Source: SAR86 cluster bacterium
Lineage (GTDB): Bacteria; Pseudomonadota; Gammaproteobacteria; Magnimaribacterales; AG-339-G14
Reading direction: 5' to 3'
DNA length: 64,000 nt
Assembly: GCA_023703675.1 (NCBI GenBank)
Contig: CP097974.1
Span: forward strand, 1,072,656-1,136,655
Made by a program: the position numbers and the translations under genes. Positions 199 to 13,137 of the stretch are shown in pieces. Numbering within the stretch: the stretch's first letter is position 1; each line of letters opens with the position of its first letter. The notes below the pieces were generated by a model. That model had not been told where the DNA came from. It was given only the letters and a program-made list of their open reading frames with translations, and ran no database searches.

Positions 199-2625
199 AT
201 GGTAAGCATAAAGAAAACAGTTAAAAAACTAACGCTAGATGAGAAAATTTCGTTATTAACTGGTTTTAATTCTTGGTATTCCAACAAAATACCTAGACTT
301 AAAATTCCGAGTATGAAAATGTCAGATGGTCCTAATGGAGTTAGAGGAGATTCTACCTCTGGAAAAAGCTCAGCCTGTTTTCCTTGCCCTATTTCTTTAG
401 GGTCGACTTGGAACAAAGAATTAATAAATAAAATTGGAATTGCTCTTGGACAAGAAGCTTTAGATAAAGACGTCGATGTTCTTCTTGGGCCTACTATAAA
501 TCTTCACAGACACCCTCTTGGAGGAAGACATTTTGAAAACTTTTCAGAGGATCCGGTTTTAACAGGAGAAATTGCGGTTGCCTATGTAAAAGGAGTTCAA
601 TCAAAAAAAGTTTCCGCTTGTTTGAAGCACTTTGTCGCTAATGATACAGAGTTTGAAAGACACACAGTAAGCTCAAACCTTGACGAAAGGACCTTAAGAG
701 AAATCTATCTTTTACCCTTTGAGATGGGAGTAAAAAAAGCAAAAGCAAAGTCTGTTATGTCTGCGTATAACAAACTCAACAATATTTATTGCAGTTCTAA
801 TAAAGATTTATTGATCGATATTTTAAAAAAAGAGTGGGGCTTCGATGGTTACGTTGTAAGCGATTGGGGGGCTGCTTTAGAAACCGTTGATAATGCCACT
901 GGTGGCTTAGATATGGAAATGCCTGGACCAGGAAATACTTGGGGAGAGAAACTTAAAACGGCCGTAGAAAAAAAAGAAGTCTCCGAAACTTTAATTGATG
1001 ACAAAGTAAAAAGAATTTTATCGACTATGGAATTTACAGGAAGATTTAGTTCTCCAAAAAATAAATCCGAAAAAGAAAAAAATAGGAAATCGCATAAAAA
1101 GTTATTAAGAAATTGTGCAAGCGAAGGCATGGTTTTATTAAAAAATGAAAATTTACTTCCTCTAAAGAAAAAAAAGATTAATTCAATTGCTCTCATTGGA
1201 CCCAACGCTAAATTTAGTCAAATTATTGGAGGAGGAAGTGCAAGCCTTAAACCGCATTATCAAATCCACCCTTTAGAGGCTTTGAAAAATTACATAGATG
1301 AAAAAAGAATTTCTTACGCAAAAGGCGTACATACACATAAGTACCTTCCAAAATTCAATGAGTCTTTGTTTTCTGATTCCGAAGGATTTAAAGTCGAATA
1401 TTTTGACAGCGAAATAAAAGAATCTAAGCTCTTAAAGACAGAATTTCTGAAAGGAAATAAGTTTTGGGTTTTTGATGGATTTGCAAAAGATATTATTAAC
1501 AAAGATGAACGGCCCAATATCAAAGTTAAATTCTCTTGTGAATACAAGGCAGATGTTGAAGGCGCACACGAATTTGAAGTTTTTGGCATTGGACCATGTG
1601 TCATGAAAATCGATGGCAAAGAAATAATAGATAATGCAAACGATATACAACCAGGTGAGGCATTTTTCTCTTTTGGCAGTGCTCCTAAAAAAACAAAATT
1701 GATTTTAAAACGGAATCAAAAATATCTAATCGAAGTCATATATTCCTTTGAAGGAAGGTTTCCTGCTGTTCAATTTGGTTGCTTACCTCCTGACAAAGAA
1801 AATTTATTAGAAGCTGCAAAAAAAATAGCTAAAGATTCAGATGCAGTGATTTTACTTGTTGGCACAAATTCAGATTGGGAGACGGAAGGTAATGATAGAA
1901 ACTCTCTTGAGCTACCCTGTAGCCAAGATGATTTAGTTAACCAAATCACTAAGATAAATTCAAATTGTGCTGTGGTTCTGAACACTGGTTCTCCGGTGAG
2001 TATGCCCTGGGTAACCCAACCAAAAGCAATTATTCAATCTTGGTTTGGGGGTCAAGAGTACGGAAATGCTCTCATGGACATTATTTTTGGAGAAACTAAT
2101 CCCTCAGGAAAACTTCCTACAACTTTCCCTACAGAAATTAAAAGTACTCCGGCTTTTTCGTCCTACCCAGGGAAAAATTCACAAATGAATTATGAAGAAA
2201 AGCTTCTCTTAGGTTACCGATGGTATGAAAAAAGAGACATCAAAACATTGTTTCCTTTTGGCCATGGTCTAAGTTATACGAGTTTTGAATATAAAAATTT
2301 AAGTCTCATTCAAAAAAATAAAAAAGTTTATTGCAATCTTGAAGTTTCAAATATTGGGAAAAGAGAAGGAAAAGAGATAATTCAATGTTATGTCAGTTCC
2401 CCAAGTCCAAACAAAAATGAGCCACTTAAAACTCTTGAAGCATTCATTAAAGTAAGAATAAAAAAAGGACAAACAAAATTAGTGACCCTTGAATTAGATG
2501 AAAGAAATTTTTCTTATTGGGACATCAATTCAAAAAATTGGAAATTAAAAGAAGGTGAATACGAAATTTTAATTGGCTCTTCTTCAGAAAATATTCACTT
2601 AAAAGAAAAACTTTCTCTTAAATAG
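199..2625 (+). CDS. Glycoside hydrolase family 3 beta-glucosidase with PA14-like insert, apparently cytoplasmic
   Basis: 808-aa ORF. GH3 motifs are present: KHFVANDTE and GFDGYVVSDWGA (nucleophile Asp context). A PA14-like segment lies at about aa 395-530 (FKVEYFD...GAHEFEVFGIGPCVMKIDGKEIID). The C-terminal fibronectin-like end contains FGHGLSYTSFEY. No N-terminal signal peptide. Confidence 0.9.
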   Translation: MVSIKKTVKKLTLDEKISLLTGFNSWYSNKIPRLKIPSMKMSDGPNGVRGDSTSGKSSACFPCPISLGSTWNKELINKIGIALGQEALDKDVDVLLGPTINLHRHPLGGRHFENFSEDPVLTGEIAVAYVKGVQSKKVSACLKHFVANDTEFERHTVSSNLDERTLREIYLLPFEMGVKKAKAKSVMSAYNKLNNIYCSSNKDLLIDILKKEWGFDGYVVSDWGAALETVDNATGGLDMEMPGPGNTWGEKLKTAVEKKEVSETLIDDKVKRILSTMEFTGRFSSPKNKSEKEKNRKSHKKLLRNCASEGMVLLKNENLLPLKKKKINSIALIGPNAKFSQIIGGGSASLKPHYQIHPLEALKNYIDEKRISYAKGVHTHKYLPKFNESLFSDSEGFKVEYFDSEIKESKLLKTEFLKGNKFWVFDGFAKDIINKDERPNIKVKFSCEYKADVEGAHEFEVFGIGPCVMKIDGKEIIDNANDIQPGEAFFSFGSAPKKTKLILKRNQKYLIEVIYSFEGRFPAVQFGCLPPDKENLLEAAKKIAKDSDAVILLVGTNSDWETEGNDRNSLELPCSQDDLVNQITKINSNCAVVLNTGSPVSMPWVTQPKAIIQSWFGGQEYGNALMDIIFGETNPSGKLPTTFPTEIKSTPAFSSYPGKNSQMNYEEKLLLGYRWYEKRDIKTLFPFGHGLSYTSFEYKNLSLIQKNKKVYCNLEVSNIGKREGKEIIQCYVSSPSPNKNEPLKTLEAFIKVRIKKGQTKLVTLELDERNFSYWDINSKNWKLKEGEYEILIGSSSENIHLKEKLSLK

Positions 2626-2626
2626 T

Positions 2627-4621
2627 TTATCCATTTAATAAAAAGGTAATTTGTTTGCTTGTAAGTTTAATTGACAAGGCTCGCATACAACTCTCCGATT
2701 CAAATAGATTTCTTGGGCCAATTAAAGGAAAAATATTTTCATGTCGATTGATAACATAAGCTAACGATAATTCAATTGCCGTGCATCCTAATTCATCAGC
2801 TAAATGAAAACACCTCTCTCTTCGATCTAAATTTGACCGACTATGCCAAACCCTTAATTCTTCATCCAAAGTTGGGTTAGCTCCATGGGAACCTTTTGGG
2901 AATGATTGTTGTTGTACAAAAAATCCACGAGCTTGACTGGACCATGGAAACAAATAAATATTATTCTTAATTACGTAATCTAAAAATTCTTCATCACACC
3001 TCATACAACCAGGCCAAACGGGCTGATTCATTTCTGCCAAACTAAAGTTGTTACTTAATACTTTAAATCCTTCTTTATCATTAGCTTCGGCATATTCATT
3101 TGCCTCACTAAACCTATTAAGACTCCAATTTGAAGCACCCAAGATTGAAATGAATCCAGCTTTTTTTAATTCATTTAATTTATCAATAAATTCGCCTACA
3201 GGAACTTCAGGGTTATCTCTATGCAAACAATAAATATCGAATTTTTTTAAGTTAAGTCTCTTTAAAGATTCTTTTATTTGAGGCTCTATAAAACTTGGCT
3301 CACACTGTGGAGTATGTGCGCCCTTTCCTAGAATAATCACCTCGTCTTGAATATTTTTTTTTCTTATCCAATTGCCTAGGTATTTATCTGAAAGACCATT
3401 GTTATAGATGTAAGCGGTATCAAAAATTCTTCCACCCTGTTGATAGAAATGTTCAAACATGCAGTAGGCATGTAAATCAGAGATTTGATTGTCACAACCA
3501 AAGACTACTTTCGGAGTTGATTTTCCTAGTATTTCAGTTGTATCTTTTTCTAAGTTAGAATCTAAATGAAAATAATGATCAATTATTGGAGAATTTTTGA
3601 TTTCGTTGCTTGGGTAGATTACTCCTAGCTTGGAATACCATTTTTCTAAAGAAAGAATGTTTCCTAAAGTATCCTTGTGGGACATCAAAGATGATTCAAA
3701 AATATTTTGAGCTATGCAATTTGCCGCCTCATCAATTTCTCTAGTAAACAATCCTACTTCATCATTTATCTGAACGATTTCCTCTTTTCCTTGATTAATA
3801 AATTTAACCGAAGAAATGCCGTCGTTAAATTGTCCGCAATGCCAAGGATCAGAAATTTCTAATCTCAAGTTTTCTGCTTCAACAATCAAATTGTTTTCAT
3901 AGTTCTCATTAATAGCCGTCTTGATTTCTGCAGAAATATTTTCTGAAAATTCAATCGTCGCTGTTGATTTAGCGTCTACACCTGTTTCATCTAACTCCCC
4001 TTCTACAGTTATTTTAGAAGGCTCTGCAAAAGGTAAATCAGTTAGTTTTCCGCCAATTAGTCTTGCCATAGATAAGGGATAGCAGCCTACATCTAGAATT
4101 GCACCTCCTGCTAACTTTGGATTTCTTAATCTATGCTCTTTTGATACATCAGCACTAAAGCCAAATGAACTCTTTAAAGAAACTCTTTTATTGAGAAAAT
4201 ACTTTTCAATGTACTCTAAAATCTTAAAAGTCTGAGGGTGACACCTATACATAAATGCCTCCATAAGAAAAACTTTTCTTTTTTGGGCTTCATTAATTAA
4301 TATCATTGATTCAGAGGAATTTATCGTTAAAGGTTTTTCACACAACACATTAAGATTGCTTCTTATGCAATCCAAAGAATATTTAAAATGAGAAACGTGA
4401 GGAGTAGCTACATAAACCGCTTCAATGCCGCTATTCAAAAACTTATCTAGTTTGTTGAAAGAATTTATTCCATGTTTTTGTGCAAAATTCTTTACTTTGG
4501 TTTCATTTCTTCCGAATACCGCTTGAAGTTCTGAAGTTTTAGAATGTTTGATCGAATGAGAAAAAGCATTGGCGATTCCCCCATTTCCAATTACTCCCCA
4601 TTTTAATTTTTTCTTAGGCAA
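2627..4621 (-). CDS. Fusion protein: N-terminal Gfo/Idh/MocA NAD(P)-oxidoreductase plus C-terminal aldo/keto reductase
   Basis: Single 664-aa ORF. The N-terminus has KWGVIGNGGIANAF (Rossmann) and CEKPLT (Gfo/Idh/MocA signature). The C-terminal half has AKR tetrad contexts FDTAYIYNNG (D,Y), LGKGAH (K), CLHRD (H) and ILGASNWSLNRF. Confidence 0.8.
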   Translation of the reverse strand: MPKKKLKWGVIGNGGIANAFSHSIKHSKTSELQAVFGRNETKVKNFAQKHGINSFNKLDKFLNSGIEAVYVATPHVSHFKYSLDCIRSNLNVLCEKPLTINSSESMILINEAQKRKVFLMEAFMYRCHPQTFKILEYIEKYFLNKRVSLKSSFGFSADVSKEHRLRNPKLAGGAILDVGCYPLSMARLIGGKLTDLPFAEPSKITVEGELDETGVDAKSTATIEFSENISAEIKTAINENYENNLIVEAENLRLEISDPWHCGQFNDGISSVKFINQGKEEIVQINDEVGLFTREIDEAANCIAQNIFESSLMSHKDTLGNILSLEKWYSKLGVIYPSNEIKNSPIIDHYFHLDSNLEKDTTEILGKSTPKVVFGCDNQISDLHAYCMFEHFYQQGGRIFDTAYIYNNGLSDKYLGNWIRKKNIQDEVIILGKGAHTPQCEPSFIEPQIKESLKRLNLKKFDIYCLHRDNPEVPVGEFIDKLNELKKAGFISILGASNWSLNRFSEANEYAEANDKEGFKVLSNNFSLAEMNQPVWPGCMRCDEEFLDYVIKNNIYLFPWSSQARGFFVQQQSFPKGSHGANPTLDEELRVWHSRSNLDRRERCFHLADELGCTAIELSLAYVINRHENIFPLIGPRNLFESESCMRALSIKLTSKQITFLLNG

Positions 4622-4703
4622 TAAAAATCTCCCCTTTGCTAAACATATATTCTAAATTGATTGCGCATTAAAGACGATTCTTCTAAGATATTTTCTTTCC
4701 CAA

Positions 4704-4779
4704 GCCCAGATAGCTCAGTTGGTAGAGCAAAGGACTGAAAATCCTTGTGTCGGTGGTTCGATTCCACCTCTGGGCACCA
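4704..4779 (+). tRNA. tRNA-Phe (anticodon GAA), CCA encoded
   Basis: Cloverleaf read by eye. Acceptor gcccaga/tctgggc, D-arm gctc-agttggta-gagc, anticodon arm aagga-cuGAAaa-tcctt, variable gtgtc, T-arm ggtgg-ttcgatt-ccacc, discriminator a, cca. Confidence 0.95.
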
Positions 4780-4818
4780 ACGAGATAACATTTTTAAAAC
4801 CAACTCAATAATACTAAA

Positions 4819-4835
4819 ATACCCCCAATGGGTAT
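4819..4835. promoter_or_regulatory. Candidate CsoR/RcnR-family operator: GC-tract inverted repeat ATACCC-ccaat-GGGTAT overlapping the start codon of the first islet gene
   Basis: Perfect 6-5-6 inverted repeat. The ATG at 4828-4830 lies inside it. TAAAAT (4815-4820) is a possible -10 abutting the left arm. The operon's last gene encodes a CsoR-family repressor. Confidence 0.45.
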
Positions 4836-5427
4836 AAGAATTATTTGTCTTTTGTCTGTCATGTCGTTTGGACTTGATGCTAGACCTATATCTTACACAG
4901 GTGGTTCAACCATAATGGCGTTTTCAGATAACATAAAAAATTCTATCTACTACCATTATTCGCCATCCTATAAATACTCAATTGGGATTGAAGTTATAAG
5001 AAATAAATATTTTAAAGATAATTATTCATATGTTAGATATACATACTTGATAAATAGAAAGAATACTGAAAACTCTCAAAGAAATTTGTATTTTCAATCT
5101 GGTGTTAGTTCAAAAGGTTTTGATGAATTTTTTTATGGTATACATGGAGATTGGGAAACAAGAAGATTATTTGTTGGTTTTGGAATAAAGGAAACTGAAA
5201 GAAAAATTCAAGACTATTTAGAACAATACTATCAAATAGGAGTTGCGCCCTATCTTGGTGATTATGGTGACTTGCACACATGGATAATGATTAAGGCAAA
5301 AGATAATTCTCTTGAAAATAAGTGGTCAACTTACCCTGTATTAAAATTTTTTAAAGGAAATGTTCTTATGGAATTTGGTTATAGCAAAAAAACTAAATGG
5401 GATATTCATCTAATGTATAGATTTTGA
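4828..5427 (+). CDS. Putative small outer-membrane beta-barrel protein (function unknown, metal islet)
   Basis: 199 aa. N-terminal signal-like MGIRIICLLSVMSFGLDA. Tyr/Gly-rich amphipathic strand-like segments. C-terminus ...HLMYRF ends in an aromatic residue, as OM barrels typically do. No family recognised. Confidence 0.4.
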   Translation: MGIRIICLLSVMSFGLDARPISYTGGSTIMAFSDNIKNSIYYHYSPSYKYSIGIEVIRNKYFKDNYSYVRYTYLINRKNTENSQRNLYFQSGVSSKGFDEFFYGIHGDWETRRLFVGFGIKETERKIQDYLEQYYQIGVAPYLGDYGDLHTWIMIKAKDNSLENKWSTYPVLKFFKGNVLMEFGYSKKTKWDIHLMYRF

Positions 5428-5435
5428 GAGGAAAA

Positions 5436-5837
5436 ATGAAAAATATATTATTAATTCTTATTTTTACTTCAATGGCATGGGGAGAAACCCCTCATGACGG
5501 CATGCATCATACTCATGAAGGACATGTTCATGAAGAATTTGTAGATGGTAAGAAATTAGAAGTTGATCCTGAGAGATTTGATAAATTCGTTATGGATCTT
5601 GAAGATACCCAAATTGCAATCGTGAATGTTCAAGGTATGGTGTGTGATTTTTGTGCTAGAGGTATTGAAAAAACATTTAAAAAAGACACCAATGTAAAAA
5701 AAGTAGACGTTGATCTGAGCAAAGGAAAAGTTTTAATCGCATACAATGTTGCTCATGAAATAATCTTTGATGATATCAAGGAAAAAATTCTAATAAACGG
5801 ACAAAATGCAATTGATATGCAGGTTATTAATCTTTAA
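5436..5837 (+). CDS. Periplasmic heavy-metal-associated (HMA) domain protein with His-rich N-terminus (MerP/CopZ-like)
   Basis: Signal peptide MKNILLILIFTSMAWG, then the His-rich ETPHDGMHHTHEGHVHEE, then the HMA fold motif VNVQGMVCDFCARGIEKTF (GMxCxxC). The track start at 5424 is a TTG. I prefer the ATG at 5436, which is preceded by gagagg. Confidence 0.75.
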   Translation: MKNILLILIFTSMAWGETPHDGMHHTHEGHVHEEFVDGKKLEVDPERFDKFVMDLEDTQIAIVNVQGMVCDFCARGIEKTFKKDTNVKKVDVDLSKGKVLIAYNVAHEIIFDDIKEKILINGQNAIDMQVINL

Positions 5838-5842
5838 AAATT

Positions 5843-6208
5843 ATGCAAGATAAATCAGCAAATTTTTTATCCTTGTTTGCCTCGTCATCAACTTTAATAT
5901 GTTGTGCACTTCCTTCATTATTTATTGCAGTTGGTGCAGGTGCTTCTTTTGCAAGTTTAATAACAGTCTTTCCATTTTTAATTGTCTTATCTCAATATAA
6001 ATTATCTATAACAATATTTGCTTCAGTGACCATCATATTTGCTGGATATGTGAATTATAAAACTTATTATATGCCTTGCCCCACAGATCCTGAGTTAGGC
6101 AAGTTATGCATGCAAACTAGAAAACAATCAAGATATGTTTATTACATTTCAGTTGTATTGTTTATTTTTGCTACAATATTTACTTATTTAGTTCCTAAAT
6201 TCGTATGA
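5843..6208 (+). CDS. MerT/MerC-like metal transport membrane protein (vicinal Cys pair in TM1)
   Basis: 121 aa with about 3-4 TM segments. TM1 carries STLICCALPSLF (CC..P, as in MerT/MerC/MerF importers). A second Cys pair lies in a loop (MPCPTDPELGKLC). Overlaps the next gene by ATGA. Confidence 0.5.
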   Translation: MQDKSANFLSLFASSSTLICCALPSLFIAVGAGASFASLITVFPFLIVLSQYKLSITIFASVTIIFAGYVNYKTYYMPCPTDPELGKLCMQTRKQSRYVYYISVVLFIFATIFTYLVPKFV

Positions 6209-6465
6209 AAAATCCATGCCATAAAGAAGAAATTCCTAGTCTTAACAGAATTGAGGGACAAGTTCGTGGAATTGCTAACATGATTGATGAAGAAAAGTAT
6301 TGCATTGATATACTCAATCAAATCAAGGCAGTTAGAAATGCTCTTACAAGTATTGAAGGAAAAATATTAAAAAGACATATGAAAGAATGTGTTAAGGAAG
6401 CATTAAATGATGAGAAGGGTTTTGACAATAAGGTTGAGGAAATATTAAAAACCCTTAAAAGATAG
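6205..6465 (+). CDS. csoR: CsoR/RcnR/FrmR-family metal-sensing transcriptional repressor (x-C-H-C fingerprint)
   Basis: 86 aa. Contains RIEGQVRGIANMI and YCIDILNQIKAVRNAL (Cys33) plus KRHMKEC (His58, Cys62, spacing HxxxC), which is the Cu(I)-CsoR-type ligand set. An extra N-terminal Cys5-His6 is present. Confidence 0.8.
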   Translation: MKNPCHKEEIPSLNRIEGQVRGIANMIDEEKYCIDILNQIKAVRNALTSIEGKILKRHMKECVKEALNDEKGFDNKVEEILKTLKR

Positions 6466-6483
6466 ATTAAATTACTGGTTTCA

Positions 6484-6549
6484 TGTGTGCGCTCTTTGTA
6501 TCAATGCTGTGAAGGTTTTTATCATGTTCGTGCACACAGGTGTGCACAC
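6484..6549. repeat. GC-rich motif cluster: TGTGTGCGC (inverted, 6484-6492) and two direct GTGCACACA units (6530-6538, 6541-6549; 11-nt period)
   Basis: Read directly from the sequence. The units stand out against AT-rich flanks. The inverted unit could pair with either direct unit (9 bp including one G-U). Confidence 0.4.
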
Positions 6550-6590
6550 AAATGGTCTGAAAGGTAATAATTTAAAGGGATTATGACTTA

Positions 6591-6645
6591 CGAACAAAGA
6601 ACTGAAAATCCTTGTGTCGGTGGTTCGATTCCTAGCAGGGACATC
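6591..6645 (+). pseudogene. tRNA-Phe fragment (anticodon arm to T-loop), non-functional
   Basis: 6600-6631 is a 32/32 exact copy of tRNA positions 4734-4765, and 39/41 when extended to 6591-6631. Downstream, tagcagggacatca replaces acctctgggcacca, which breaks the T-stem and acceptor stem. No matching 5' half lies upstream. Confidence 0.8.
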
Positions 6646-6690
6646 ACAATTTTCTAAAACTAAAAAAATAGAATCTTTTTTAAGACTTCA

Positions 6691-8040
6691 TTATTTTATA
6701 ACATTCAAAGAATTAGAAAACTTTTGTATGTTATTTACTTTAGTTGGCCTTCCAATACATATGTAATCAAATTCTTTCTTAGACAGAAGATTTGGATCGT
6801 AGATATTCCTTCCATCAAAAATAACTGCATTTTTTAAATAAGTTTTTAACTCTTCCAAGTCTATGTTAAAAAATTCTTTCCATTCTGTAGCGATAATCAA
6901 TGCATTTGATTCTTTAGCTGCATCGAAAGGATTATCATTAAAAGATAAATTTTTATGCTTTATAGTTTCTCTTAAATTATCAAGAGCCTTAGGGTCATAG
7001 GCTTTAACAAGCGCTCCTTTGTTTAGAAGATTTTTAATCAATTTAATTGCAGGAGCGAAACGAATATCGTCTGTATTAGGTTTGAAGGATACACCCCATA
7101 CAGAAAGAGTAAGGCCAGATAAATCATCAGATTTGAAATATTCTGTAATCTTTTTAGTAAAAATGTCTACCTGGAAATCATTAATCTCAATTACAGATTT
7201 TAATAGTTTCAAATCTAGATTTGCGTCATTAGCATTATCAATTATCGCTCTGATATCTTTAGGAAAACATGAACCGCCAAATCCCAATCCAGGATATAGG
7301 TATTCATAACCTATCCTTTTATCAAGTCCTATACCCATTCTTACTTTCTCAATATCAGCACCCTTTATGTCGGCATAATTTGAAAGCTCATTCATAAAAC
7401 TTATTTTAGTAGCCAAAAAAGCATTTGAAGCATATTTAGTCAACTCTGCCGAAGGTGTGTCCATAAAAATTATAGATTTATTCTCCCTTATGAAAGGAGA
7501 AAAAATAGTTAGAAAAAAATCTTCTGAGATATCAGAATTTTTACCAATGACTATTCTGTCAGGTTTTAAGAAATCTTTTACTGCAGAACCTTCTCTTAAA
7601 AATTCTGGACACATTGAAATATTGATATTCTTTGAGGAATCGATCATTGTTGATAATTCTTCACATGTGCCTGGAGGAACAGTAGATTTAATAATAAAAA
7701 AAGCATCTTTTGTATTTTCAGAAATAGAAAAAATTGATTTGTAGAGAGCTAGTAAGTTTGCCTCACCCGAACCTCTGGGTGGTGTGCCGACACAAATAAA
7801 AAATATATTTGAAAAATCGGAAACTTCCTTCAACTTATCTGAAAAACTTAATCGATTATTTCCTAAATTTTCTTTTAGCAAAGATTCAAGCTGAGGCTCA
7901 TAAATATTAGTTTTACCGTTTTTAAGAAGATCAATCTTATCCTTATCTATGTCATAACATTTAACTTCATGTCCTGAGTGGGCAAAACATGCTGCAGTTA
8001 CCAAGCCAACATATCCTGCACCAATAACATTAATATTCAT
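6691..8040 (-). CDS. ugd: UDP-glucose 6-dehydrogenase
   Basis: MNINVIGAGYVGLV (Rossmann) and the catalytic context GFGGSCFPKD. The track start (8118) adds 26 implausible residues. The ATG at 8040 overlaps the upstream stop as ATGA. Confidence 0.9.
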   Translation of the reverse strand: MNINVIGAGYVGLVTAACFAHSGHEVKCYDIDKDKIDLLKNGKTNIYEPQLESLLKENLGNNRLSFSDKLKEVSDFSNIFFICVGTPPRGSGEANLLALYKSIFSISENTKDAFFIIKSTVPPGTCEELSTMIDSSKNINISMCPEFLREGSAVKDFLKPDRIVIGKNSDISEDFFLTIFSPFIRENKSIIFMDTPSAELTKYASNAFLATKISFMNELSNYADIKGADIEKVRMGIGLDKRIGYEYLYPGLGFGGSCFPKDIRAIIDNANDANLDLKLLKSVIEINDFQVDIFTKKITEYFKSDDLSGLTLSVWGVSFKPNTDDIRFAPAIKLIKNLLNKGALVKAYDPKALDNLRETIKHKNLSFNDNPFDAAKESNALIIATEWKEFFNIDLEELKTYLKNAVIFDGRNIYDPNLLSKKEFDYICIGRPTKVNNIQKFSNSLNVIK

Positions 8041-9023
8041 GAATGTGCCGTTGTTACCGAAGAAATAAAATTGCTTGCAACTTCGTCCCAAGAATATTTT
8101 TTTGAATATGCAATACACGATTTAGGATCAACTTTTTGTGCTTGCTTTATTGCTTGGTATAAATCTTTATTTAAATAGCCATTTACGCCATTCTTAACAA
8201 CATCAATAGGTCCGGTTACTGGATATCCTGCCACTGGAGTTCCACAGGCATTTGCTTCTATCATCACTATTCCAAAGGTATCAGTCCGAGAAGGGAAAAC
8301 CTTAACACATGCGTTTGAGTAAATTTCTGCAAGCTCTCTGCCAAATTTATAGCCAAGAAATTCTACATCTGGATATTTTTTTTTGAGACTTTTCAAACTA
8401 GGCCCATCACCTACAACGACTTTCTTTTTGTCCAGTTCTAAACTTAAGAAAGACTCTAAATTTTTTTCTTTAGATACTCTGCCAACATATAGATAGTAAC
8501 TATTATTTCTATCACTTGGAGTGGGGGAAAAAATGTTTTCATCAATGCCCCTTGACCATAAAGCTAATTTCTTAATTCCTATCTCTTCCAGTTCCTTTTT
8601 ATGAGATGGAGTATTTACAAAGGTCACACAAGCTGCATTGTGAAACCATCTTTCAAATCTATTTGTAAATTGAACTGGAATACCCAGCATTTTTTTTAGA
8701 TATAAGGGAAAGTTTGTGTGGTAAGAAGATGAAAATTTTAATTTTTCAACCAAACACACTTTTCTTGCATAAAGCCCAAGCGGGCCCTCAGTTGCAATAT
8801 GAATTAAATCTGGACGAAAATCGTTTATTATTTTTTTTATTTTAAAAACATTCAGTGAAAGTTTTATTTCCTTATAAAAAGGTATAGGAACAGAAACAAA
8901 ACTATTTGGCTCAATAATTTTTACATCATTATTTATTGATAGTTTCTTTACTAAATTTTCTAATGTAGTTACTACGCCATTAACTTGAGGTTTCCAAGCA
9001 TCCGTGACCAAAAGAATTTTCAT
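8037..9023 (-). CDS. GT4-type (GT-B) glycosyltransferase, Agt-like candidate glucosyl/glucuronosyl-diacylglycerol synthase
   Basis: 328 aa. Contains MKILLVTDAWKPQVNGVV and the C-terminal EX7E-like region FPSRTDTFGIVMIEANACGTPV. ATGA overlaps with both neighbours. The specific substrate is inferred from context only. Confidence 0.6.
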   Translation of the reverse strand: MKILLVTDAWKPQVNGVVTTLENLVKKLSINNDVKIIEPNSFVSVPIPFYKEIKLSLNVFKIKKIINDFRPDLIHIATEGPLGLYARKVCLVEKLKFSSSYHTNFPLYLKKMLGIPVQFTNRFERWFHNAACVTFVNTPSHKKELEEIGIKKLALWSRGIDENIFSPTPSDRNNSYYLYVGRVSKEKNLESFLSLELDKKKVVVGDGPSLKSLKKKYPDVEFLGYKFGRELAEIYSNACVKVFPSRTDTFGIVMIEANACGTPVAGYPVTGPIDVVKNGVNGYLNKDLYQAIKQAQKVDPKSCIAYSKKYSWDEVASNFISSVTTAHS

Positions 9024-9835
9024 GCAACCTTATCTTCTGTATGATTTTGATTGTTTGTATATTTAGAATAATCAATTATGTGAAAACGGCCCTCATAATC
9101 TTCTACCAATGCTGTACAAGACTCAACCCAGTCGCCACAGTTTAAATAATGTATTTCATCTATCATTTCATTCGCAACTGAATGAATATGTCCGCAAATT
9201 ACACCATCAAATCCTTCTTTTTTACATACAAAAGCTAAAGTACTCTCAAAATCGCTTATAAAATTTACTGCTGATTTAACTTTGTGTTTTACGAATGCTG
9301 AGAAGGACCAGTATCCAAGATTGAAATTTTTTCTGAAAAAATTTACTACTCTATTTGTTGCCATCAAGAGTTCATAAGCCCAGCTTCCTAATTTAGAAAT
9401 CCATTTACTGTATTTCGTAACTAAATCAAATTGATCGCCATGGATGACAAGGTATTTTTTTCCACTTATCGAGGTATAAATAGCTCGATCAGTAACTTTT
9501 ACATTTCCAAGTAGGATAGGCGAATATGATCTAAGAAACTCATCGTGATTTCCAGTGATGTAATTTACATTTGTGTCATCTTTGGCATAAGACAAAAAAC
9601 GTCTTAAAACATTGGTGTGCGCTTGGGGCCAAAAAAGAGATTGTTCCATTCGCCAGCCGTCAACGATGTCTCCAACAAGATATAGTTCTTCGCAGGAATT
9701 ATTGTAGAGAAAATCAAGTAGTCTTTCTGCTTGACAACCCTTGGTGCCCAAATGAATGTCTGACAACCAAATAGACTTGTATTTTTTTTGATTCACCAAT
9801 GAAACTATTAGAAACTTATGTAAGTTCTGATTCAA
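9020..9835 (-). CDS. Calcineurin-like metallophosphoesterase of the LpxH/PlcP group; candidate phospholipase C PlcP
   Basis: Metallophosphoesterase motifs in order: SDIHLG, GDIVDGW, GNHDEF, HGDQFD, GHIH. First gene of a coupled three-gene operon with a glycosyltransferase and ugd. Confidence 0.6.
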   Translation of the reverse strand: MNQNLHKFLIVSLVNQKKYKSIWLSDIHLGTKGCQAERLLDFLYNNSCEELYLVGDIVDGWRMEQSLFWPQAHTNVLRRFLSYAKDDTNVNYITGNHDEFLRSYSPILLGNVKVTDRAIYTSISGKKYLVIHGDQFDLVTKYSKWISKLGSWAYELLMATNRVVNFFRKNFNLGYWSFSAFVKHKVKSAVNFISDFESTLAFVCKKEGFDGVICGHIHSVANEMIDEIHYLNCGDWVESCTALVEDYEGRFHIIDYSKYTNNQNHTEDKVA

Positions 9836-9879
9836 TGCTCATAAATCTAATCAGTATGATTTTTTCTTAAAATTTTCAA

Positions 9880-9892
9880 TTCTGTAACAGAA
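9880..9892. promoter_or_regulatory. Perfect 6-1-6 palindrome TTCTGT-A-ACAGAA about 45 nt upstream of the plcP-like start; candidate operator
   Basis: Read directly from the sequence. Each half contains CTGT(A/T)AC, which weakly resembles a PhoB half-site (CTGTCAT/CTGTCAC). No convincing second direct half-site at 11-nt spacing. Confidence 0.25.
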
Positions 9893-10226
9893 CCTTTATA
9901 AAGTTCACGCTTTCTTTAAGTCATCGCAAAAAGTACCTATAGCTTTATTAAAATTTGAAGAGTTATGTAAGAAAATGAAACAATGAAAATATTCGTTGGT
10001 TACTACTAGGAGCAATTTATACAAAATAAGACTTTTAGAACCTTTAAAAATACATACTATTTCTACAACGACTTAACTAAAGAAAAGGATAGAGATTTTG
10101 AAAATAATATAATGATCTCAATGGAACCTATGGTTTAAAACTCTGCATGGCATACAAAACCAGCAAACTTAAAAGACTTAACAACTGGTAAAGCACAAAT
10201 ACTTGAAAGATCAATAAATTTGTTCC

Positions 10227-10244
10227 ATTCCACCTCTGGGCACC
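10227..10244 (+). repeat. 18-nt exact direct repeat of the tRNA-Phe 3' end (T-loop to discriminator); att-like site
   Basis: attccacctctgggcacc is identical to 4761-4778, in the same orientation. It lies 46 nt upstream of pip. Confidence 0.8.
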
Positions 10245-10289
10245 TTTTAAAAAATATCTTTCAAAAAAAACCTGAAGTATGATGTCTTA

Positions 10290-11252
10290 ATGAATTTCTT
10301 CAGAAAAAAACAAATCCTTTACCCAGCAATAGAGCCATTTGACTCAGGTTTTATCAAAGACGGAATTCATGAAATTTATTATGAACAATGTGGGAATCCT
10401 AAAGGAAAACCCGCCGTTTTTTTTCATGGAGGTCCTGGTGGTGGCGCTGGTAAATTTTCAAGAAGATTTTTTAATCCAAAAAAATACAGAATTGTCCTTT
10501 TTGATCAAAGGGGTTGTGGAAAAAGTAAACCTCATGCTTGTTTAGAAAATAATACAACTTGGCATTTGGTTCAAGACATAGAAACGATAAGAAAGAAGTT
10601 AGAAATTGAAAAGTGGTTAGTATTTGGTGGATCTTGGGGAAGTACCCTTGCACTTGCTTATGCACAAAAACACCCAGAGTGTGTCACAGAACTTGTGCTG
10701 AGAGGAATCTTCATGCTGAGAGAAAAAGAATTGAGATGGTTTTATCAATATGGGGCAAGTGAAATCTATCCAGAAGCTTGGCAAGGATTTATCAATGAAA
10801 TTCCAGAAGAAGAGAGATTCGATCTAATTGATGCTTATAGAAAAATTTTCAACGGTGAGGACAAGGAGAAAAAATTATCTGCTGCTAAGGCCTGGTCAAA
10901 GTGGGAAGCCTCAACGAGCTTTATAAATCATAATCCAAATGCAGTTAAAGATTCGATCAATGCTGAATTTGCGCTAGCTTTTGCTCAAATAGAAAATCAT
11001 TACTTTATTAACAATGGTTTCTTAGATCACGAAAATCAGCTCCTCGATGGCGTTGACACTATAAGACACATTCCCGCAGTTATTGTTCAAGGAAGATATG
11101 ACCTAGTCTGTCCAGCAACCACTGCTTACGAATTACATTCGCGTTGGCCCGAATCTAAATTAAAAATTGCTCCATTTTCGGGACACTCTGCTTTTGAAAA
11201 AGAAATTTCTAAATTATTAATTGAAACAACTGACGAGTTTTCAAGAAATTAG
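10290..11252 (+). CDS. pip: Proline iminopeptidase (prolyl aminopeptidase)
   Basis: HGGPGGG and GGSWGSTLALAYAQKHPE (nucleophile elbow). The 320-aa alpha/beta hydrolase length is typical of Pip. Confidence 0.9.
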   Translation: MNFFRKKQILYPAIEPFDSGFIKDGIHEIYYEQCGNPKGKPAVFFHGGPGGGAGKFSRRFFNPKKYRIVLFDQRGCGKSKPHACLENNTTWHLVQDIETIRKKLEIEKWLVFGGSWGSTLALAYAQKHPECVTELVLRGIFMLREKELRWFYQYGASEIYPEAWQGFINEIPEEERFDLIDAYRKIFNGEDKEKKLSAAKAWSKWEASTSFINHNPNAVKDSINAEFALAFAQIENHYFINNGFLDHENQLLDGVDTIRHIPAVIVQGRYDLVCPATTAYELHSRWPESKLKIAPFSGHSAFEKEISKLLIETTDEFSRN

Positions 11253-11308
11253 TTGATTGACAGACCAAATACAAACTCAATATTATTATGTTGAGAAAAG
11301 ATTTTTAA

Positions 11309-12535
11309 ATGTCGGAAAATTTATTATTAAAGGGAATAAAAGTAATTGATGCCGCTAGCTTTATTGCTGGACCTGCTTCCACAACCATACTTTCTGATTT
11401 TGGTGCCGAGGTTATTAAAATCGAGCCTCCTAAAGTAGGAGATAGTTTAAGACATCTTATCCTGCGAACTAGAAGAGTTAACCCACAGGGAGACAAAGAT
11501 TACTGTTGGCATTTAACTTCTAGGAATAAAAAAAGTCTCGCATTGGATCTAAACACCTCTAAAGGCCAAGAAATCTTAAAAGAATTAATAAAAGAAGCAG
11601 ATGTATTTGTCACCAACATGCCAAAAAAAACTAGAGAAAAGTTGAAAATACGTGCCGAAGATTTATTACCTATAAACGAAAGGCTAGTTTATGGATCACT
11701 AACTGGTTATGGTGAAAGCGGTGAAGACTCCCATCGAACTGCTTTTGATGTTTTGGCTTGGTGGGCAAGAAGTGGTTTGATGGATATTGTGAGACCATCT
11801 GATAATTCTTCCCCCGGATTTGTTCCGATTGGTATAGGCGATCAGCCTACTGGTGTTGCTTTGTTTGCAAGCATAATGACAGCTTTATACAGAAGAGAGA
11901 AAACTGGAAAAGGAGGAGAAGTCTACACTTCATTGATGGCAAATGGAGCTTGGTCAAATGGTAGCTATATTCAAGCAGGATTGTTCAATGCAGAATTTCC
12001 AGACCGACAAGAAGAATCTCCTCTTCATCCTTTCGGAGGAAGATACAAAACTAAAGACGGTAGGTTTTTACTCTTGGCTATAATCGACGCAGCTAAAGAA
12101 TGGCCTAAATTTCTAAATGCAATGGATTTAAATTATTTAAACGAGAATGAAAAATTTTCTAGTTTTAAAAAATTAAATTCTAATTTTCATGAGTTGTACA
12201 AAATTTTAGAAGATGTATTTATACGATATAGCCTAACTGAAGTTATAGATAAATTGAGAGATTCTGGTGTTACTTTTGGATTCATGAACAAATCAAATGA
12301 TCTTGCAAGCGATCAACAATTTCTTGATAGTGGGGTATTGATTAAGTATGAAAACGAAGCATTCGAAGAAGATTCTCTTACTGTAAATAGTCCAGTTTTT
12401 CTAAAAAACGAGCCTAAAAAAACTCCGGCAAAAGGCCCAGATCTTGGCGAACATACAAGAGAAATTTTAATTAGCCTTGGTAAAAGTGAAGCAGACATTA
12501 GTGCGTTAAAAGAATCTGGAATAATAGATTTTTAA
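11309..12535 (+). CDS. Family III CoA-transferase (CaiB/BaiF family)
   Basis: N-terminal LKGIKVIDAASFIAGPASTTILSDFGAEVIKIEPP is the hallmark of the family. 408 aa. Confidence 0.85.
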   Translation: MSENLLLKGIKVIDAASFIAGPASTTILSDFGAEVIKIEPPKVGDSLRHLILRTRRVNPQGDKDYCWHLTSRNKKSLALDLNTSKGQEILKELIKEADVFVTNMPKKTREKLKIRAEDLLPINERLVYGSLTGYGESGEDSHRTAFDVLAWWARSGLMDIVRPSDNSSPGFVPIGIGDQPTGVALFASIMTALYRREKTGKGGEVYTSLMANGAWSNGSYIQAGLFNAEFPDRQEESPLHPFGGRYKTKDGRFLLLAIIDAAKEWPKFLNAMDLNYLNENEKFSSFKKLNSNFHELYKILEDVFIRYSLTEVIDKLRDSGVTFGFMNKSNDLASDQQFLDSGVLIKYENEAFEEDSLTVNSPVFLKNEPKKTPAKGPDLGEHTREILISLGKSEADISALKESGIIDF

Positions 12536-12538
12536 AAA

Positions 12539-13132: not shown

Positions 13133-13137
13133 TTTGA

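What the first reader, a model, noticed from the sequence alone, without database searches (positions are those of the whole stretch)
4704..10244. tRNA-Phe hot spot: three direct tRNA-derived repeats partition about 5.5 kb into two islets with no integrase
Three pieces of tRNA-Phe sequence occur in the same orientation. The first is the intact tRNA-Phe (4704-4779). The second is a 32/32 exact copy of its anticodon-loop-to-T-stem segment (4734-4765) at 6600-6631, which extends to 39/41 from 6591. The third is an 18/18 exact copy of its T-loop-to-discriminator end (4761-4778) at 10227-10244. Direct repeats of a tRNA 3' portion are the classical footprint of tyrosine-integrase-mediated island insertion, and anticodon-loop and T-loop crossover sublocations are both documented. 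The repeats delimit islet A (metal module, about 4780-6590) and islet B (plcP-like/agt-like/ugd plus a 454-bp ORF-free spacer, about 6646-10226). No integrase, excisionase or transposase ORF is present. One feature is odd. The middle copy matches the tRNA only up to ATTCC and then diverges (tagcagggacatca versus acctctgggcacca). The right copy matches only from ATTCC onward. A simple two-step integration model does not predict this. It suggests decay, a foreign attP remnant, or recombination between att sites.
Basis: partly seen in the sequence, partly recalled or inferred. Interest (0 to 1): 0.75.

Follow-up and report, generated by a model that had tools for sequence, protein, structure and literature searches.

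The report
SAR86 tRNA-Phe integration hot spot
This is a gene-insertion hot spot next to the tRNA-Phe gene of a marine SAR86 bacterium, holding two small gene cassettes that lack their own integrase; the odd middle repeat is explained because the second cassette, which carries the tail of a tRNA-Arg gene, landed inside the first cassette's end repeat.

Summary

- **Organism and site.** The window is from SAR86 (Gammaproteobacteria). In 80 related loci the tRNA-Phe/pip site is either empty (9 loci, 12-93 bp) or filled with unrelated cargo. That cargo is bounded by direct copies of tRNA positions about 31-76.
- **Integrase.** Related cells carry 5-8.5 kb elements with a tyrosine integrase beside the same att. 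Ends-joined (attP) junctions were assembled independently several times.
- **Islet A (metal module).** It has no integrase but keeps the att core and a tandem arm-type repeat. It is 99.2% identical to a copy in a species whose flanking pip gene is only 78% identical, so it moved recently.
- **The "three repeats" are two.** The middle and right pieces are halves of islet A's single right-hand att. Islet B (plcP-like/GT4/ugd) split it, duplicating ATTCC.
- **The divergent tail.** TAGCAGGGACATCA is the 3' end of tRNA-Arg(CCT). One metagenome contig has the same module directly after an intact tRNA-Arg(CCT).
- **Islet B mobility.** It is 97-98% identical in two other SAR86 species, at the same junction.

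This is a new member of a known kind (tycheposon-like or CIME-like islets).

The parts
4704..4779 (+). tRNA-Phe(GAA). It serves as attB/attL of the hot spot.
   Evidence: ARAGORN. Rfam RF00005, 75.2 bits. 97-100% identical in 53 related SAR86 loci.
4734..4779 (+). att core inside the tRNA (linear positions 31-76, anticodon loop to CCA). This is the segment repeated at islet boundaries across SAR86.
   Evidence: Direct copies of positions 31-76 (sometimes from 23-28) bound islets in L001, L004, L008, L009, L036, L058, L059, L072, L074, L048, L056, L064 and L079. Integrase-bearing elements carry positions 25/26/28-76.
4780..6591 (+). Islet A: an integrase-less cargo islet carrying a putative metal-homeostasis operon.
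   Evidence: The same islet is att-flanked in L001, L003, L004, L005 and L008, in first or second array position. It is 99.2% identical in L008 and 97.0% in L004, where pip is 78-79.5% identical.
4828..5427 (+). Islet A ORF of 199 aa with no family match.
   Evidence: No Pfam or NCBIfam hit. Conserved with the islet in other loci.
5424..5837 (+). Islet A HMA-domain (CopZ-like) metal-binding protein.
   Evidence: PF00403 at 6.7e-09. CopZ-type NCBIfam hits fall below their cut-offs.
5843..6208 (+). Islet A small membrane protein, weakly MerT-like.
   Evidence: PF02411 at 2.3e-4, below the gathering score. Also.
6205..6465 (+). Islet A CsoR/RcnR-family metal-sensing repressor.
   Evidence: PF02583 at 5.1e-28.
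6530..6550 (+). Tandem arm-type repeat GTGCACACA (6530-6538 and 6542-6550) in the P arm of islet A, starting 71 nt before the att core.
   Evidence: Of 28 distinct att copies in SAR86, 15 have an exact tandem pair of at least 9 nt with the same geometry (spacing 11-12, 69-84 nt upstream). Only 0.93% of background windows do.
6592..6632 (+). Left half of islet A's attR: tRNA-Phe positions 22-62 (39/41, exact from 6601). Positions 6622-6632 (GGTTCGATTCC) form the T-loop segment shared with tRNA-Arg(CCT), where the crossover lies.
6633..6646 (+). Remnant of the 3' end of tRNA-Arg(CCT) (positions 63-76). The window has TAGCAGGGACATCA; intact L082 has TAGCAGGGGCACCA.
   Evidence: In L082 an intact tRNA-Arg(CCT) is followed directly by the same module. 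Homology to the window (93% over 3.36 kb) starts inside the tRNA's T-loop.
6633..10226 (.). Islet B: a 3.6-kb insertion into islet A's attR, flanked by duplicated ATTCC (6628-6632 and 10227-10231).
   Evidence: Absent from L001, where the att copy is intact. The visible part in L112 and L089 is 97.4-98.6% identical while pip is 81-82% identical. No arm-type repeats at either end.
6691..8043 (-). UDP-glucose 6-dehydrogenase-type gene (ugd).
   Evidence: Three UDPG_MGDP_dh Pfam domains. TIGR03026 at 426.7 bits, above its cut-off.
8037..9023 (-). GT4 glycosyltransferase (agt-like).
   Evidence: PF00534, PF13692 and PF13439.
9020..9835 (-). LpxH-like metallophosphoesterase (plcP-like).
   Evidence: PF00149. 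LpxH NCBIfam models score far below their cut-offs. In other SAR86 genomes the gene sits beside phoB-phoR-ppx-ppk2-pstS.
9836..9955 (-). Upstream (promoter) region of the plcP operon. It travels with the module in every context.
   Evidence: Homology to the Pho-locus copies (L083-L087, L102) ends at about 9955. Homology to the epoxide-hydrolase (EHN)-locus copies ends at about 9919.
9956..10226 (.). ORF-free spacer specific to the mobile form of islet B, ending in GTTCC next to the junction.
   Evidence: Shared only with L081, L089, L112 and, as far as its contig reaches, L082. No Rfam hit, no integrase remnant, no tandem repeats.
10222..10244 (+). Right half of islet A's attR: tRNA-Phe positions 53-75 (22/23, exact from 10227). 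It is followed by the native flank of pip.
   Evidence: The downstream flank is collinear with L001.
10290..11252 (+). pip (prolyl aminopeptidase), the conserved right-hand neighbour of the hot spot.
   Evidence: TIGR01249 at 442 bits, above its cut-off. Used as the anchor for the 80 loci.

Best explanation
The gap between tRNA-Phe(GAA) and pip in SAR86 is the chromosomal attachment site of a family of small integrative elements.

**How the system works.** These elements use a tyrosine integrase; its more distant relatives (38-72% identity) carry a P4-type Arm-DNA-bind_3 domain. Their att core is the tRNA from the anticodon loop to CCA. It is flanked by arms that carry tandem 9-12-nt repeats. 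Successive integrations at the tRNA push older elements towards pip and leave arrays of islets separated by att copies.

**Islet A (4780-6591).** It is a non-autonomous derivative of such an element. It has no integrase but keeps the att core and a P-arm repeat pair. It has moved between SAR86 species recently. I infer that a cognate integrase supplied in trans moved it; this is not shown.

**Islet B (6633-10226).** It was not integrated at the tRNA. Its form carries an attP-like end that mimics the T-loop-to-CCA part of tRNA-Arg(CCT), and it sits downstream of that tRNA in another genome. It recombined by one reciprocal crossover, within the T-loop bases ATTCC that tRNA-Arg and tRNA-Phe share, into the displaced att copy at the right end of islet A.

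**Result.** This split the att copy into 6592-6632 and 10222-10244, duplicated ATTCC, and created a Phe/Arg chimeric pseudo-tRNA end. Hitting the spare att copy rather than the real tRNA-Phe left the essential gene intact.

The history is shown by comparison with related sequences. The enzyme responsible for islet B's step is unknown.
For: **Hot spot**
- 42 loci have tRNA-Phe upstream of pip on the same strand. Nine are empty, and the rest hold gaps of 1-9.8 kb with unrelated cargo.

**att**
- Copies of positions 31-76 bound 0.7-5.6 kb islets, often two in tandem.

**Integrase**
- In L126 (SAG AG-337-O23) the order is tRNA-Phe, an 8.4-kb element, a 461-aa PF00589 integrase, then att[26-76] matching 51/51.
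- L124 (65% identical integrase) has att[25-76] 109 bp from int.
- L130 is a concatemer of a 7,112-bp unit, each unit with att[28-76] next to int.
- L127-L129 show the P'-att-P junction of the L126-type element in three independent assemblies.
- 41 of the 55 listed relatives (from 72% identity down) carry PF13356 Arm-DNA-bind_3; the closest ones (94%, 65%, 56%) and the L020/L126 integrase itself show only PF00589.

**Arms**
- 15 of 28 att copies have exact tandem pairs of at least 9 nt at a fixed distance, against 0.93% of background windows.
- The motif is the same at both ends of one islet, in integrase-bearing elements (L126, L130) and in integrase-less ones (L008, L064, L072).
- Integrase-less islets share proteins with the L126 element.

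**Recent mobility**
- Islet A is 99.2% and 97.0% identical to its copies in L008 and L004, while pip is 78% and 79.5% identical.
- Islet B is 97.4-98.6% identical where pip is 81-82% identical.

**Split att**
- L001 has the intact att where the window has islet B.

**tRNA-Arg origin**
- L082 has an intact tRNA-Arg(CCT) followed by the module, with homology starting in the T-loop.
- The right junction lies at the same nucleotide position in three species backgrounds (window, L112, L089).
Against: - No integrase lies in the 64-kb window, and the rest of this genome could not be searched. Trans-mobilisation is therefore an inference.
- Islet A has arm-type repeats on one side only.
- Islet B has no arm-type repeats at all. 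Its exchange region is at most about 5-6 bp of identity, which is short for a tyrosine recombinase overlap region. A microhomology-mediated event therefore fits its junctions equally well.
- The far end of the module in the tRNA-Arg context is not visible because L082 ends at a contig edge. A tRNA-Arg direct repeat flanking it there is assumed, not seen.
- No integrase specific for tRNA-Arg(CCT) was found.
- No att-bearing contig was found in the viral collection.
Confidence: 0.75

Rival explanations
1. The islets are inert remnants. Their spread between species is due to ordinary RecA-dependent homologous recombination of imported DNA. The identical tRNA (76 bp) and att copies (46 bp) act as portable homology anchors, with no integrase acting in trans.
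For: - No integrase lies in the window.
- Islet boundaries coincide with 46-76-bp blocks that are 97-100% identical across species.
- The tycheposon paper proposes this route for island genes outside functional elements.
- Islet B reached three species although it has no arm sites.
Against: - 15 of 28 att copies keep precisely positioned arm-type repeat pairs. The motifs match at both ends of integrase-less islets, which homologous recombination would not maintain.
- Active integrase-bearing relatives and attP junctions exist in the same lineage.
- The two routes are not mutually exclusive.
Confidence: 0.3
2. Islet B entered by microhomology-mediated illegitimate recombination, as a chance break-and-join at the T-loop. 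It was not placed by a site-specific recombinase acting on a tRNA-Arg-like attP.
For: - Only ATTCC is perfectly shared at the two junctions, or GTTC[G/C]ATTCC with one mismatch.
- There are no arm repeats, no recombinase gene and no terminal inverted repeats.
- The plcP module occurs in at least four genomic contexts in SAR86, so it is generally prone to rearrangement.
Against: - Both junctions fall in the same pentamer, as a single reciprocal crossover with a circle predicts.
- The element end mimics 23 nt of a tRNA 3' end in register, from the T-loop to CCA.
- In L082 the module sits exactly at the 3' end of an intact tRNA-Arg(CCT).
- The same junction position is seen in three species backgrounds.
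Confidence: 0.3
3. Islet B is a transposon insertion with a 5-bp target-site duplication (ATTCC).
For: A 5-bp direct duplication flanks the 3.6-kb insert.
Against: - The three ORFs are ugd, GT4 and a metallophosphoesterase; no transposase family was among their Pfam hits.
- The ends TAGCAGGGACATCA... and ...AATAAATTTGTTCC are not inverted repeats.
- The left end is tRNA-Arg sequence.
Confidence: 0.03
4. The repeats are decayed remnants of an ancestral tandem tRNA-Phe gene array, or of a conserved core arrangement.
For: The copies are in direct orientation and tRNA-derived.
Against: - Copies always begin at about positions 23-31 and never include the tRNA 5' half.
- Nine related genomes have the tRNA directly before pip.
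- Cargo between copies differs from genome to genome.
- The same segment sits next to integrase genes as attP or attR.
Confidence: 0.01

Closest known systems
Tycheposons and tRNA-seeded genomic islands of Prochlorococcus (Hackl et al., bioRxiv 10.1101/2020.12.28.424599; read)
   Same: - Small integrase-carrying elements integrate at tRNA genes in a streamlined marine bacterium.
- Successive integrations push older elements inwards and leave partial tRNA copies and degenerate elements.
- Cargo is nutrient- and defence-related, including phosphate and metal functions.
- Circular and tandem junctions are detectable.
- The authors report related elements in Gammaproteobacteria.
   Different: - The host is SAR86, and the target is tRNA-Phe. 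tRNA-Phe does not occur in the preprint's main text.
- The SAR86 integrase family includes members with a P4-type Arm-DNA-bind_3 domain. Its relation to the tycheposon integrase clade was not tested.
- No replication module was recognised.
- Most SAR86 islets seen here lack an integrase yet keep arm-type repeats.
- The cross-tRNA (Arg into Phe) chimeric att was not among the passages of that paper I read.
P4-family integrase islands at tRNA-Phe (pheV/pheU) and other tRNAs in Enterobacteria (own knowledge, not tested here)
   Same: - A tyrosine integrase sits next to one att.
- The direct repeat is the 3' part of the tRNA.
- Several different islands use the same tRNA.
   Different: - The enterobacterial islands are tens of kb long, with repeats of about 20 bp.
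- The SAR86 elements are 5-8.5 kb, the islets are 0.7-5.6 kb, and the identity block is 46-52 bp.
- The L020 integrase itself shows only PF00589 in Pfam. PF13356 appears in relatives from 72% identity down.
CIMEs (cis-mobilisable elements) of Streptococcus ICE families (own knowledge)
   Same: - They are flanked by att sites of a resident integrase family.
- They lack recombination genes.
- They are derived from autonomous elements.
- They are found in tandem accretion with other elements.
   Different: - CIME mobilisation by a co-resident ICE has been shown experimentally. Here trans-mobilisation is only inferred.
- No conjugation machinery is involved in SAR86.
PlcP/Agt phosphorus-stress lipid remodelling genes of marine heterotrophs (Sebastian et al., ISME J 2016, PMC4796936; located)
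   Same: - An LpxH-like metallophosphoesterase is followed by a GT4 glycosyltransferase.
- In other SAR86 genomes the pair lies beside phoB-phoR-ppx-ppk2-pstS.
   Different: - Identity to characterised PlcP or Agt was not measured here, so the function is inferred from domains and context.
- This copy adds ugd and is carried on a mobile islet.
Integron cassette arrays
   Same: An array of short cassettes lacking a recombinase, separated by a repeated recombination site. I inferred that a recombinase encoded elsewhere serves it.
   Different: - The site is a direct copy of a tRNA 3' part with duplex arm-type repeats, not an attC hairpin.
- There is no adjacent intI, attI or Pc.
- The cassettes carry their own promoters and regulators.
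- It is not an integron.

Membership tests
tRNA-targeting tyrosine-integrase integrative element / genomic island | An intact tRNA gene forms one boundary. | tested here: met
   tRNA-Phe at 4704-4779.
tRNA-targeting tyrosine-integrase integrative element / genomic island | A direct repeat of the tRNA 3' part forms the other boundary. | tested here: met
   For islet A, the repeat is 6592-6632 plus 10222-10244, which together equal one att copy. The intact version is seen in L001, L004 and L008.
tRNA-targeting tyrosine-integrase integrative element / genomic island | A tyrosine integrase gene lies inside the element. | tested here: not met
   None in 4780-10289 or anywhere in the window. The feature is met only in related elements L126, L124 and L130.
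tRNA-targeting tyrosine-integrase integrative element / genomic island | Presence/absence polymorphism: empty attB in relatives. | tested here: met
   Nine empty sites. L001 lacks islet B, and the window lacks L001's first islet.
tRNA-targeting tyrosine-integrase integrative element / genomic island | An excised or circular form with an attP junction. | tested here: inconclusive
   Seen for integrase-bearing relatives (L127-L129 and the L130 concatemer).
Tycheposon (Hackl et al.) | The integrase belongs to the tycheposon tyrosine-recombinase clade. | not tested
   No tycheposon integrase sequences were available to compare. The SAR86 family shows PF00589, with PF13356 in relatives from 72% identity down.
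Tycheposon (Hackl et al.) | A small replication module (primase, helicase or polymerase). | tested here: inconclusive
   The precomputed Pfam hits listed for the called genes of L126, L124 and L130 include no replication domain, and many of these ORFs have no hit at all. The one weak REP_ORF2-G2P hit, in L021 at E=0.0069, came from my own Pfam scan.
Tycheposon (Hackl et al.) | tRNA-site integration with tandem elements separated by partial tRNAs, and niche-adaptive cargo. | tested here: met
CIME-like non-autonomous integrative element | Flanked by att sites of an integrase family present in the lineage, with no recombinase of its own. | tested here: met
   The att core is identical to that of the integrase-bearing elements. 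The P-arm repeat pair sits at the canonical distance. No integrase is present.
CIME-like non-autonomous integrative element | Mobilised in trans by the cognate integrase. | not testable with these tools
   The only evidence is indirect: 97-99% identity of islet A across species whose pip is 78-80% identical.
Transposon (for islet B) | Terminal inverted repeats and a transposase. | tested here: not met
   The ends are unrelated in inverted orientation, and no transposase family was among the Pfam hits of the three ORFs.
Integron | intI with attI/Pc next to the array, and attC-type imperfect inverted-repeat sites. | tested here: not met
   No integrase is adjacent. The sites are direct tRNA fragments.

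The most novel reading that the evidence does not exclude
The integrase-less islets may be more than debris. They could be a distinct class of non-autonomous cassettes that keep a complete set of cis sites: a 46-bp tRNA-derived core plus matched arm-type repeat pairs. Integrases carried by a minority of cells would move them in trans. tRNA-Phe in SAR86 (and probably tRNA-Arg(CCT)) would then act as an integron-like cassette platform that shuttles defence, metal and phosphorus-stress modules between species. The different arm motifs (GTGAACAG, TGAACAC, TTAACACA, GTGCACACA, GGTCATCAC, CGAACCT, CGTAAGCATA) would mark separate integrase specificities. Spare att copies would serve as safe landing pads for elements from other tRNAs.
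Probability: 0.3. Interest if true: 0.7.

Novelty: new member of a known kind. Interest (0 to 1): 0.5.

Why it matters
- SAR86 is among the most abundant uncultured bacteria of the surface ocean. How it exchanges genes is largely unknown. My literature searches found no description of a tRNA-Phe hot spot or of integrative elements in SAR86.
- The data show that the tycheposon-style way of building islands operates in this lineage too.
- Small cassettes without an integrase cross species boundaries: 97-99% identity against 78-82% for the neighbouring core gene.
- A phosphorus-stress lipid-remodelling module is chromosomal beside phoBR-pst in other SAR86 genomes. Here it has become mobile cargo.
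- The Phe/Arg chimeric site is a clear example of a displaced att copy acting as a harmless secondary target.
- The arm-repeat catalogue gives concrete, testable binding sites for the integrases.

Tried and rejected
- **Viral-contig scans.** Four exact-pattern scans found nothing: the chimeric tail, the 45-nt Phe att, a degenerate Arg T-loop-to-CCA 24-mer, and the 25-nt Phe 3' end. A phage or satellite origin could not be shown.
- **Integrase regex.** A regular expression for tyrosine-recombinase catalytic motifs found nothing and missed the real integrase in L020. I replaced it with Pfam scans and tblastn.
- **Rfam.** A search of 4000-11000 at E<=1 found only the tRNA, so no RNA family lies in the two spacers.
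- **Promoter and terminator scans.** Scans of 6400-10350 gave fewer sites than shuffled sequence and were uninformative.
- **Integrase remnants.** tblastn found none in 6466-6690 or 9836-10289 (best E>=4).
- **Transposon reading of ATTCC.** Rejected, because there are no inverted repeats and no transposase.
- **Tandem tRNA array.** Rejected, because of the empty sites and because the copies never include the tRNA 5' half.
- **46%-identical integrases (L116-L123).** They sit next to an Oxidored_FMN gene with no tRNA att, so they do not bear on this site.
- **Far end of the module at tRNA-Arg.** L082 stops at a contig edge. The look-ups I could still make returned only Pho-locus and epoxide-hydrolase (EHN)-locus contexts.
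- **Fetching the L020 integrase directly.** I reached the same contig through its cluster member P0205.

Full report
**1. The observation**

ARAGORN finds a single tRNA in the 64-kb window, tRNA-Phe(GAA) at 4704-4779. Rfam confirms it at 75.2 bits. I number tRNA positions linearly along this 76-nt gene.

- Positions 31-62 recur exactly at 6601-6632. The match extends to 39/41 from 6592.
- Positions 58-75 recur exactly at 10227-10244, extending to 10222 at 22/23.
- Shuffled controls expect 0.00-0.01 such matches.

The ORFs between the repeats are as follows:
- a 199-aa protein with no family match;
- an HMA protein;
- a weakly MerT-like membrane protein;
- a CsoR/RcnR-type repressor;
- on the other strand, a UDP-glucose-dehydrogenase-type gene, a GT4 glycosyltransferase and an LpxH-like metallophosphoesterase.

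The right-hand neighbour is prolyl aminopeptidase (TIGR01249, 442 bits). No integrase is present.

**2. Organism and comparative frame**

Anchoring on pip fetched 80 loci from species-representative genomes, nearly all SAR86 single-cell genomes or MAGs. The window is therefore SAR86. The window's metallophosphoesterase is URQ73429.1, from a "SAR86 cluster bacterium" contig of 1,194,046 bp.

In 42 loci tRNA-Phe lies upstream of pip on the same strand.
- In nine of them (L002, L006, L007, L011, L023, L024, L043, L044, L045) only 12-93 bp separate the two. These are empty sites.
- In the others the gap is 1-9.8 kb.

Exact or near-exact direct copies of tRNA positions 31-76 (sometimes starting at 23-28) bound the inserted DNA, often twice in tandem. 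This is seen in L001, L004, L008, L009, L036, L058, L059, L072 and L074. It is also seen on the other side of an inverted tRNA in L048, L056, L064 and L079.

The cargo differs from locus to locus:
- formyltransferase plus polysaccharide deacetylase;
- HIT plus HNH proteins;
- a C5 DNA methylase with unknown partners;
- a type III restriction-modification pair;
- DUF2306;
- FG-GAP proteins;
- many ORFs with no family match.

**3. The integrase system**

One locus, L020, has a 461-aa PF00589 protein directly beside an att[26-76] copy. The full contig (L126, SAG AG-337-O23) reads as follows: tRNA-Phe, an 8.4-kb element of about 13 ORFs, the integrase, a 51/51 copy of positions 26-76, then conserved genes and pip.

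Relatives at 94%, 72%, 65% and 56% identity exist in metagenomes. Relatives from 72% identity down (41 of the 55 listed) carry the P4-type Arm-DNA-bind_3 domain, PF13356; the L020/L126 integrase itself and its 94%, 65% and 56% relatives show only PF00589.
- L124 (65%) has att[25-76] 109 bp from the integrase start, with a C5 methylase as cargo.
- L130 (56%) is a 41.6-kb contig made of tandem 7,112-bp units. Each unit carries att[28-76] (49/49) next to the integrase.
- L127, L128 and L129, from three independent assemblies, join the P' arm of the L126-type element to its P arm across a single att copy. This is the attP junction of a circular or tandem form. They also carry a 3-kb internal deletion.

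An active integrase/att system therefore targets tRNA-Phe in SAR86. tblastn with all 56 integrases finds nothing in the window (best E=0.13).

**4. Arm-type repeats**

I lined up the 110 nt on either side of every att copy. This revealed exact tandem repeat pairs at fixed geometry.
- On the P side, 15 of 28 distinct copies have a pair of at least 9 nt, spaced 11-12 nt, starting 69-84 nt before position 31.
- Only 0.93% of random 110-nt windows from the same loci have such a pair.
- On the P' side, pairs start 27-29 or 47-48 nt after position 76.

The motif is the same at the two ends of one element. This holds for integrase-bearing elements (GTGAACC in L126; CGTAAGCATA in L130). It also holds for integrase-less islets (GGTGAACAG in L008; ATGAACAC in L064; TTGAACAC in L072). 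Integrase-less islets also share protein homologues with the L126 element: a HIT protein at 56% and a 211-aa protein at 62%.

I read these repeats as arm-type integrase-binding sites, and the islets as non-autonomous derivatives that keep their cis sites. Binding itself is inferred, not shown.

**5. Islet A**

Window 4734-6632 aligns with att-flanked copies in five loci:
- L008 at 99.2%;
- L004 at 97.0%;
- L001 at 95.2%;
- L003 and L005 at 81-82%.

It lies in the first or second array position. Neighbouring pip is only 78% (L008) and 79.5% (L004) identical, and the genes upstream of the tRNA are about 67% identical. The islet has therefore moved between species recently.

Its P arm carries GTGCACACA at 6530-6538 and 6542-6550, 71 nt before the core, which is the canonical place. 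Its P' side has no pair. Instead it has the palindrome TACCCCCAATGGGTA (4820-4834) just before the operon. This resembles a CsoR operator (own knowledge, untested).

**6. The odd middle copy resolved**

In L001 (pip 96% identical at protein level) the order is: tRNA-Phe, a 2.0-kb islet, att(31-76), islet A, an intact att(31-75), then pip.

Window 4734-6631 aligns to L001 8099-9941. Window 10222-11300 aligns to L001 9933-11011. The two window segments overlap by nine bases inside one att copy. The middle and right "copies" are therefore the two halves of islet A's attR. Islet B (6633-10226) is an insertion into it, with ATTCC present at both junctions.

A metagenome scan with the metallophosphoesterase gave L082. 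There an intact tRNA-Arg(CCT) (…CTCTAGGTTCGATTCCTAGCAGGGGCACCA) is followed directly by the same ugd-GT4-plcP module. L082 is 93% identical to window 6622-9980, and the homology begins in the T-loop.

This explains each part of the junction.
- Window 6633-6646 (TAGCAGGGACATCA) is the tRNA-Arg 3' end with two transitions.
- The junction lies in GGTTCGATTCC, which the two tRNAs share.
- At the right junction the element side reads GTTCCATTCC (C at position 57) and the left junction reads GTTCGATTCC (G).
- The exchange therefore occurred between position 57 and position 63, that is, within ATTCC.

Joining the two ends of islet B gives …AAATTTGTTCC-ATTCC-TAGCAGGGACATCA…. This mimics, in register, the 23 nt from the T-loop to CCA of tRNA-Arg(CCT). 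One reciprocal crossover between such a circle and the Phe att copy reproduces both junctions exactly.

The same event in the real tRNA-Phe would have replaced its 3' end with an incompatible one. This may be why the spare copy is where the insertion survived (inference).

**7. Mobility and contexts of islet B**

The right junction recurs at the same nucleotide in two other species backgrounds.
- In L112 (a Mediterranean MAG) the flank is the L004/L008 type.
- In L089 another 1.5-kb insert follows before pip.

There the visible islet B sequence is 97.4-98.6% identical to the window, and pip is 81-82% identical. L081 reproduces both junctions at 99.7%.

Elsewhere in SAR86 the module sits in at least two other contexts.
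- The commonest is next to phoB-phoR-ppx-ppk2-porin-pstS (L101-L110, L083-L087).
- A two-gene version without ugd sits next to an epoxide-hydrolase gene (L135-L140; the truncated contigs L111 and L113-L115 share the same upstream gene).

The Pho-locus context and the domain content fit the PlcP/Agt phosphorus-stress lipid-remodelling system (PMC4796936). I did not compare sequences with characterised enzymes.

Islet B has no arm-type repeats and no recombinase. The agent of its insertion remains open. It could be a secondary-site event by a tRNA-Arg-specific recombinase or a microhomology-mediated crossover.

**8. Comparison with known systems**

The closest described system is the tycheposon/island model of Prochlorococcus. 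It has tRNA-targeted small elements, tandem accretion, scattered partial tRNAs, degenerate elements, nutrient and defence cargo, and related elements reported in Gammaproteobacteria.

Membership in that family is untested, because I made no integrase phylogeny and recognised no replication module. Functionally, the window's islets resemble CIMEs: att-flanked, recombinase-less derivatives that can ride on a resident integrase (own knowledge). The array is not an integron, and islet B is not a transposon.

Literature searches found no description of this hot spot in SAR86.

**9. Verdict**

- The finding is real, and it is an integration hot spot.
- The "three repeats" are one tRNA plus one att copy split by a later insertion.
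- The puzzling tail is tRNA-Arg(CCT).
- It is a new member of a known kind. Two aspects deserve follow-up: cis-complete integrase-less cassettes that cross species, and a cross-tRNA hybrid att site.

Noticed in passing
window 4820-4834: The palindrome TACCCCCAATGGGTA lies just upstream of the first ORF of islet A. It is conserved in the L001, L003, L004, L005 and L008 copies. It looks like an operator for the islet's own CsoR-family repressor.
   Followed up: no
L130 (FUFK010041008.1), whole locus: This 41.6-kb metagenome contig is a head-to-tail concatemer of a 7,112-bp unit. The unit holds an integrase, two MORN-repeat proteins, an SRAP protein and small ORFs. Each unit carries a 49/49 tRNA-Phe att copy. 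It is either a circular episome assembled as a concatemer or a tandem multimer.
   Followed up: partly
L127, L128, L129 compared with L126 15145-18175: The attP-junction contigs of the L126-type element lack a 3-kb internal block that includes the HNH-HIT fusion gene. At least two size variants of this element therefore circulate.
   Followed up: partly
L111 and L112 (both from GCA_045564335.1); also L113-L115: Several Mediterranean long-read MAGs have contigs that end about 330-370 bp into the plcP-like gene. One MAG has two such contigs with different upstream contexts: the epoxide-hydrolase (EHN) locus and the pip/tRNA-Phe hot spot. The module is therefore duplicated or polymorphic in that population, and this breaks the assemblies.
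   Followed up: partly
L101-L110, about 9400-20700: In the commonest SAR86 context, the plcP-GT4-ugd module is embedded in a phosphate-stress neighbourhood. The order is His_Phos_1, the module, phoB, phoR, ppx, ppk2, a porin, a MIP channel, then pstS and pstC.
   Followed up: no
L047, L048, L050-L052, L056, L057, L064, L065, L070, L079: In one SAR86 clade (pip 64-70% identical) tRNA-Phe is inverted relative to pip, with a PhyH-family gene between them. The att-flanked islets lie on the far side of the tRNA. The hot spot therefore follows the tRNA 3' end, not pip.
   Followed up: no
L010 about 7180-7200; L068 about 7677; L124 downstream of att: Tandem GGTCATCAC (or AGTCATCA in L068) pairs sit 47 nt after tRNA-Phe, as in a P' arm. 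No att copy is detectable further on in L010 or L068. These may be islets whose right-hand att has decayed.
   Followed up: no
L116-L123: Integrases 46% identical to the tRNA-Phe family sit next to an Oxidored_FMN gene with no tRNA or tRNA-Phe fragment. In L116 the neighbourhood shares the GH3 gene and the GFO_IDH_MocA-aldo/keto-reductase fusion gene with window 199-4621. A sister element family seems to use a different, non-tRNA site in SAR86.
   Followed up: no
L008 6891-7907 (- strand): In this integrase-less islet a 338-aa HNH_4-domain protein occupies the position and orientation that the integrase has in L126. Its start codon lies about 126 nt from the att core, behind the arm repeats.
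   Followed up: no
window 2627-4621 (- strand): The gene left of the tRNA is a 664-aa fusion of a GFO_IDH_MocA oxidoreductase and an aldo/keto reductase. It is conserved in L001-L007 and in L116.
   Followed up: no
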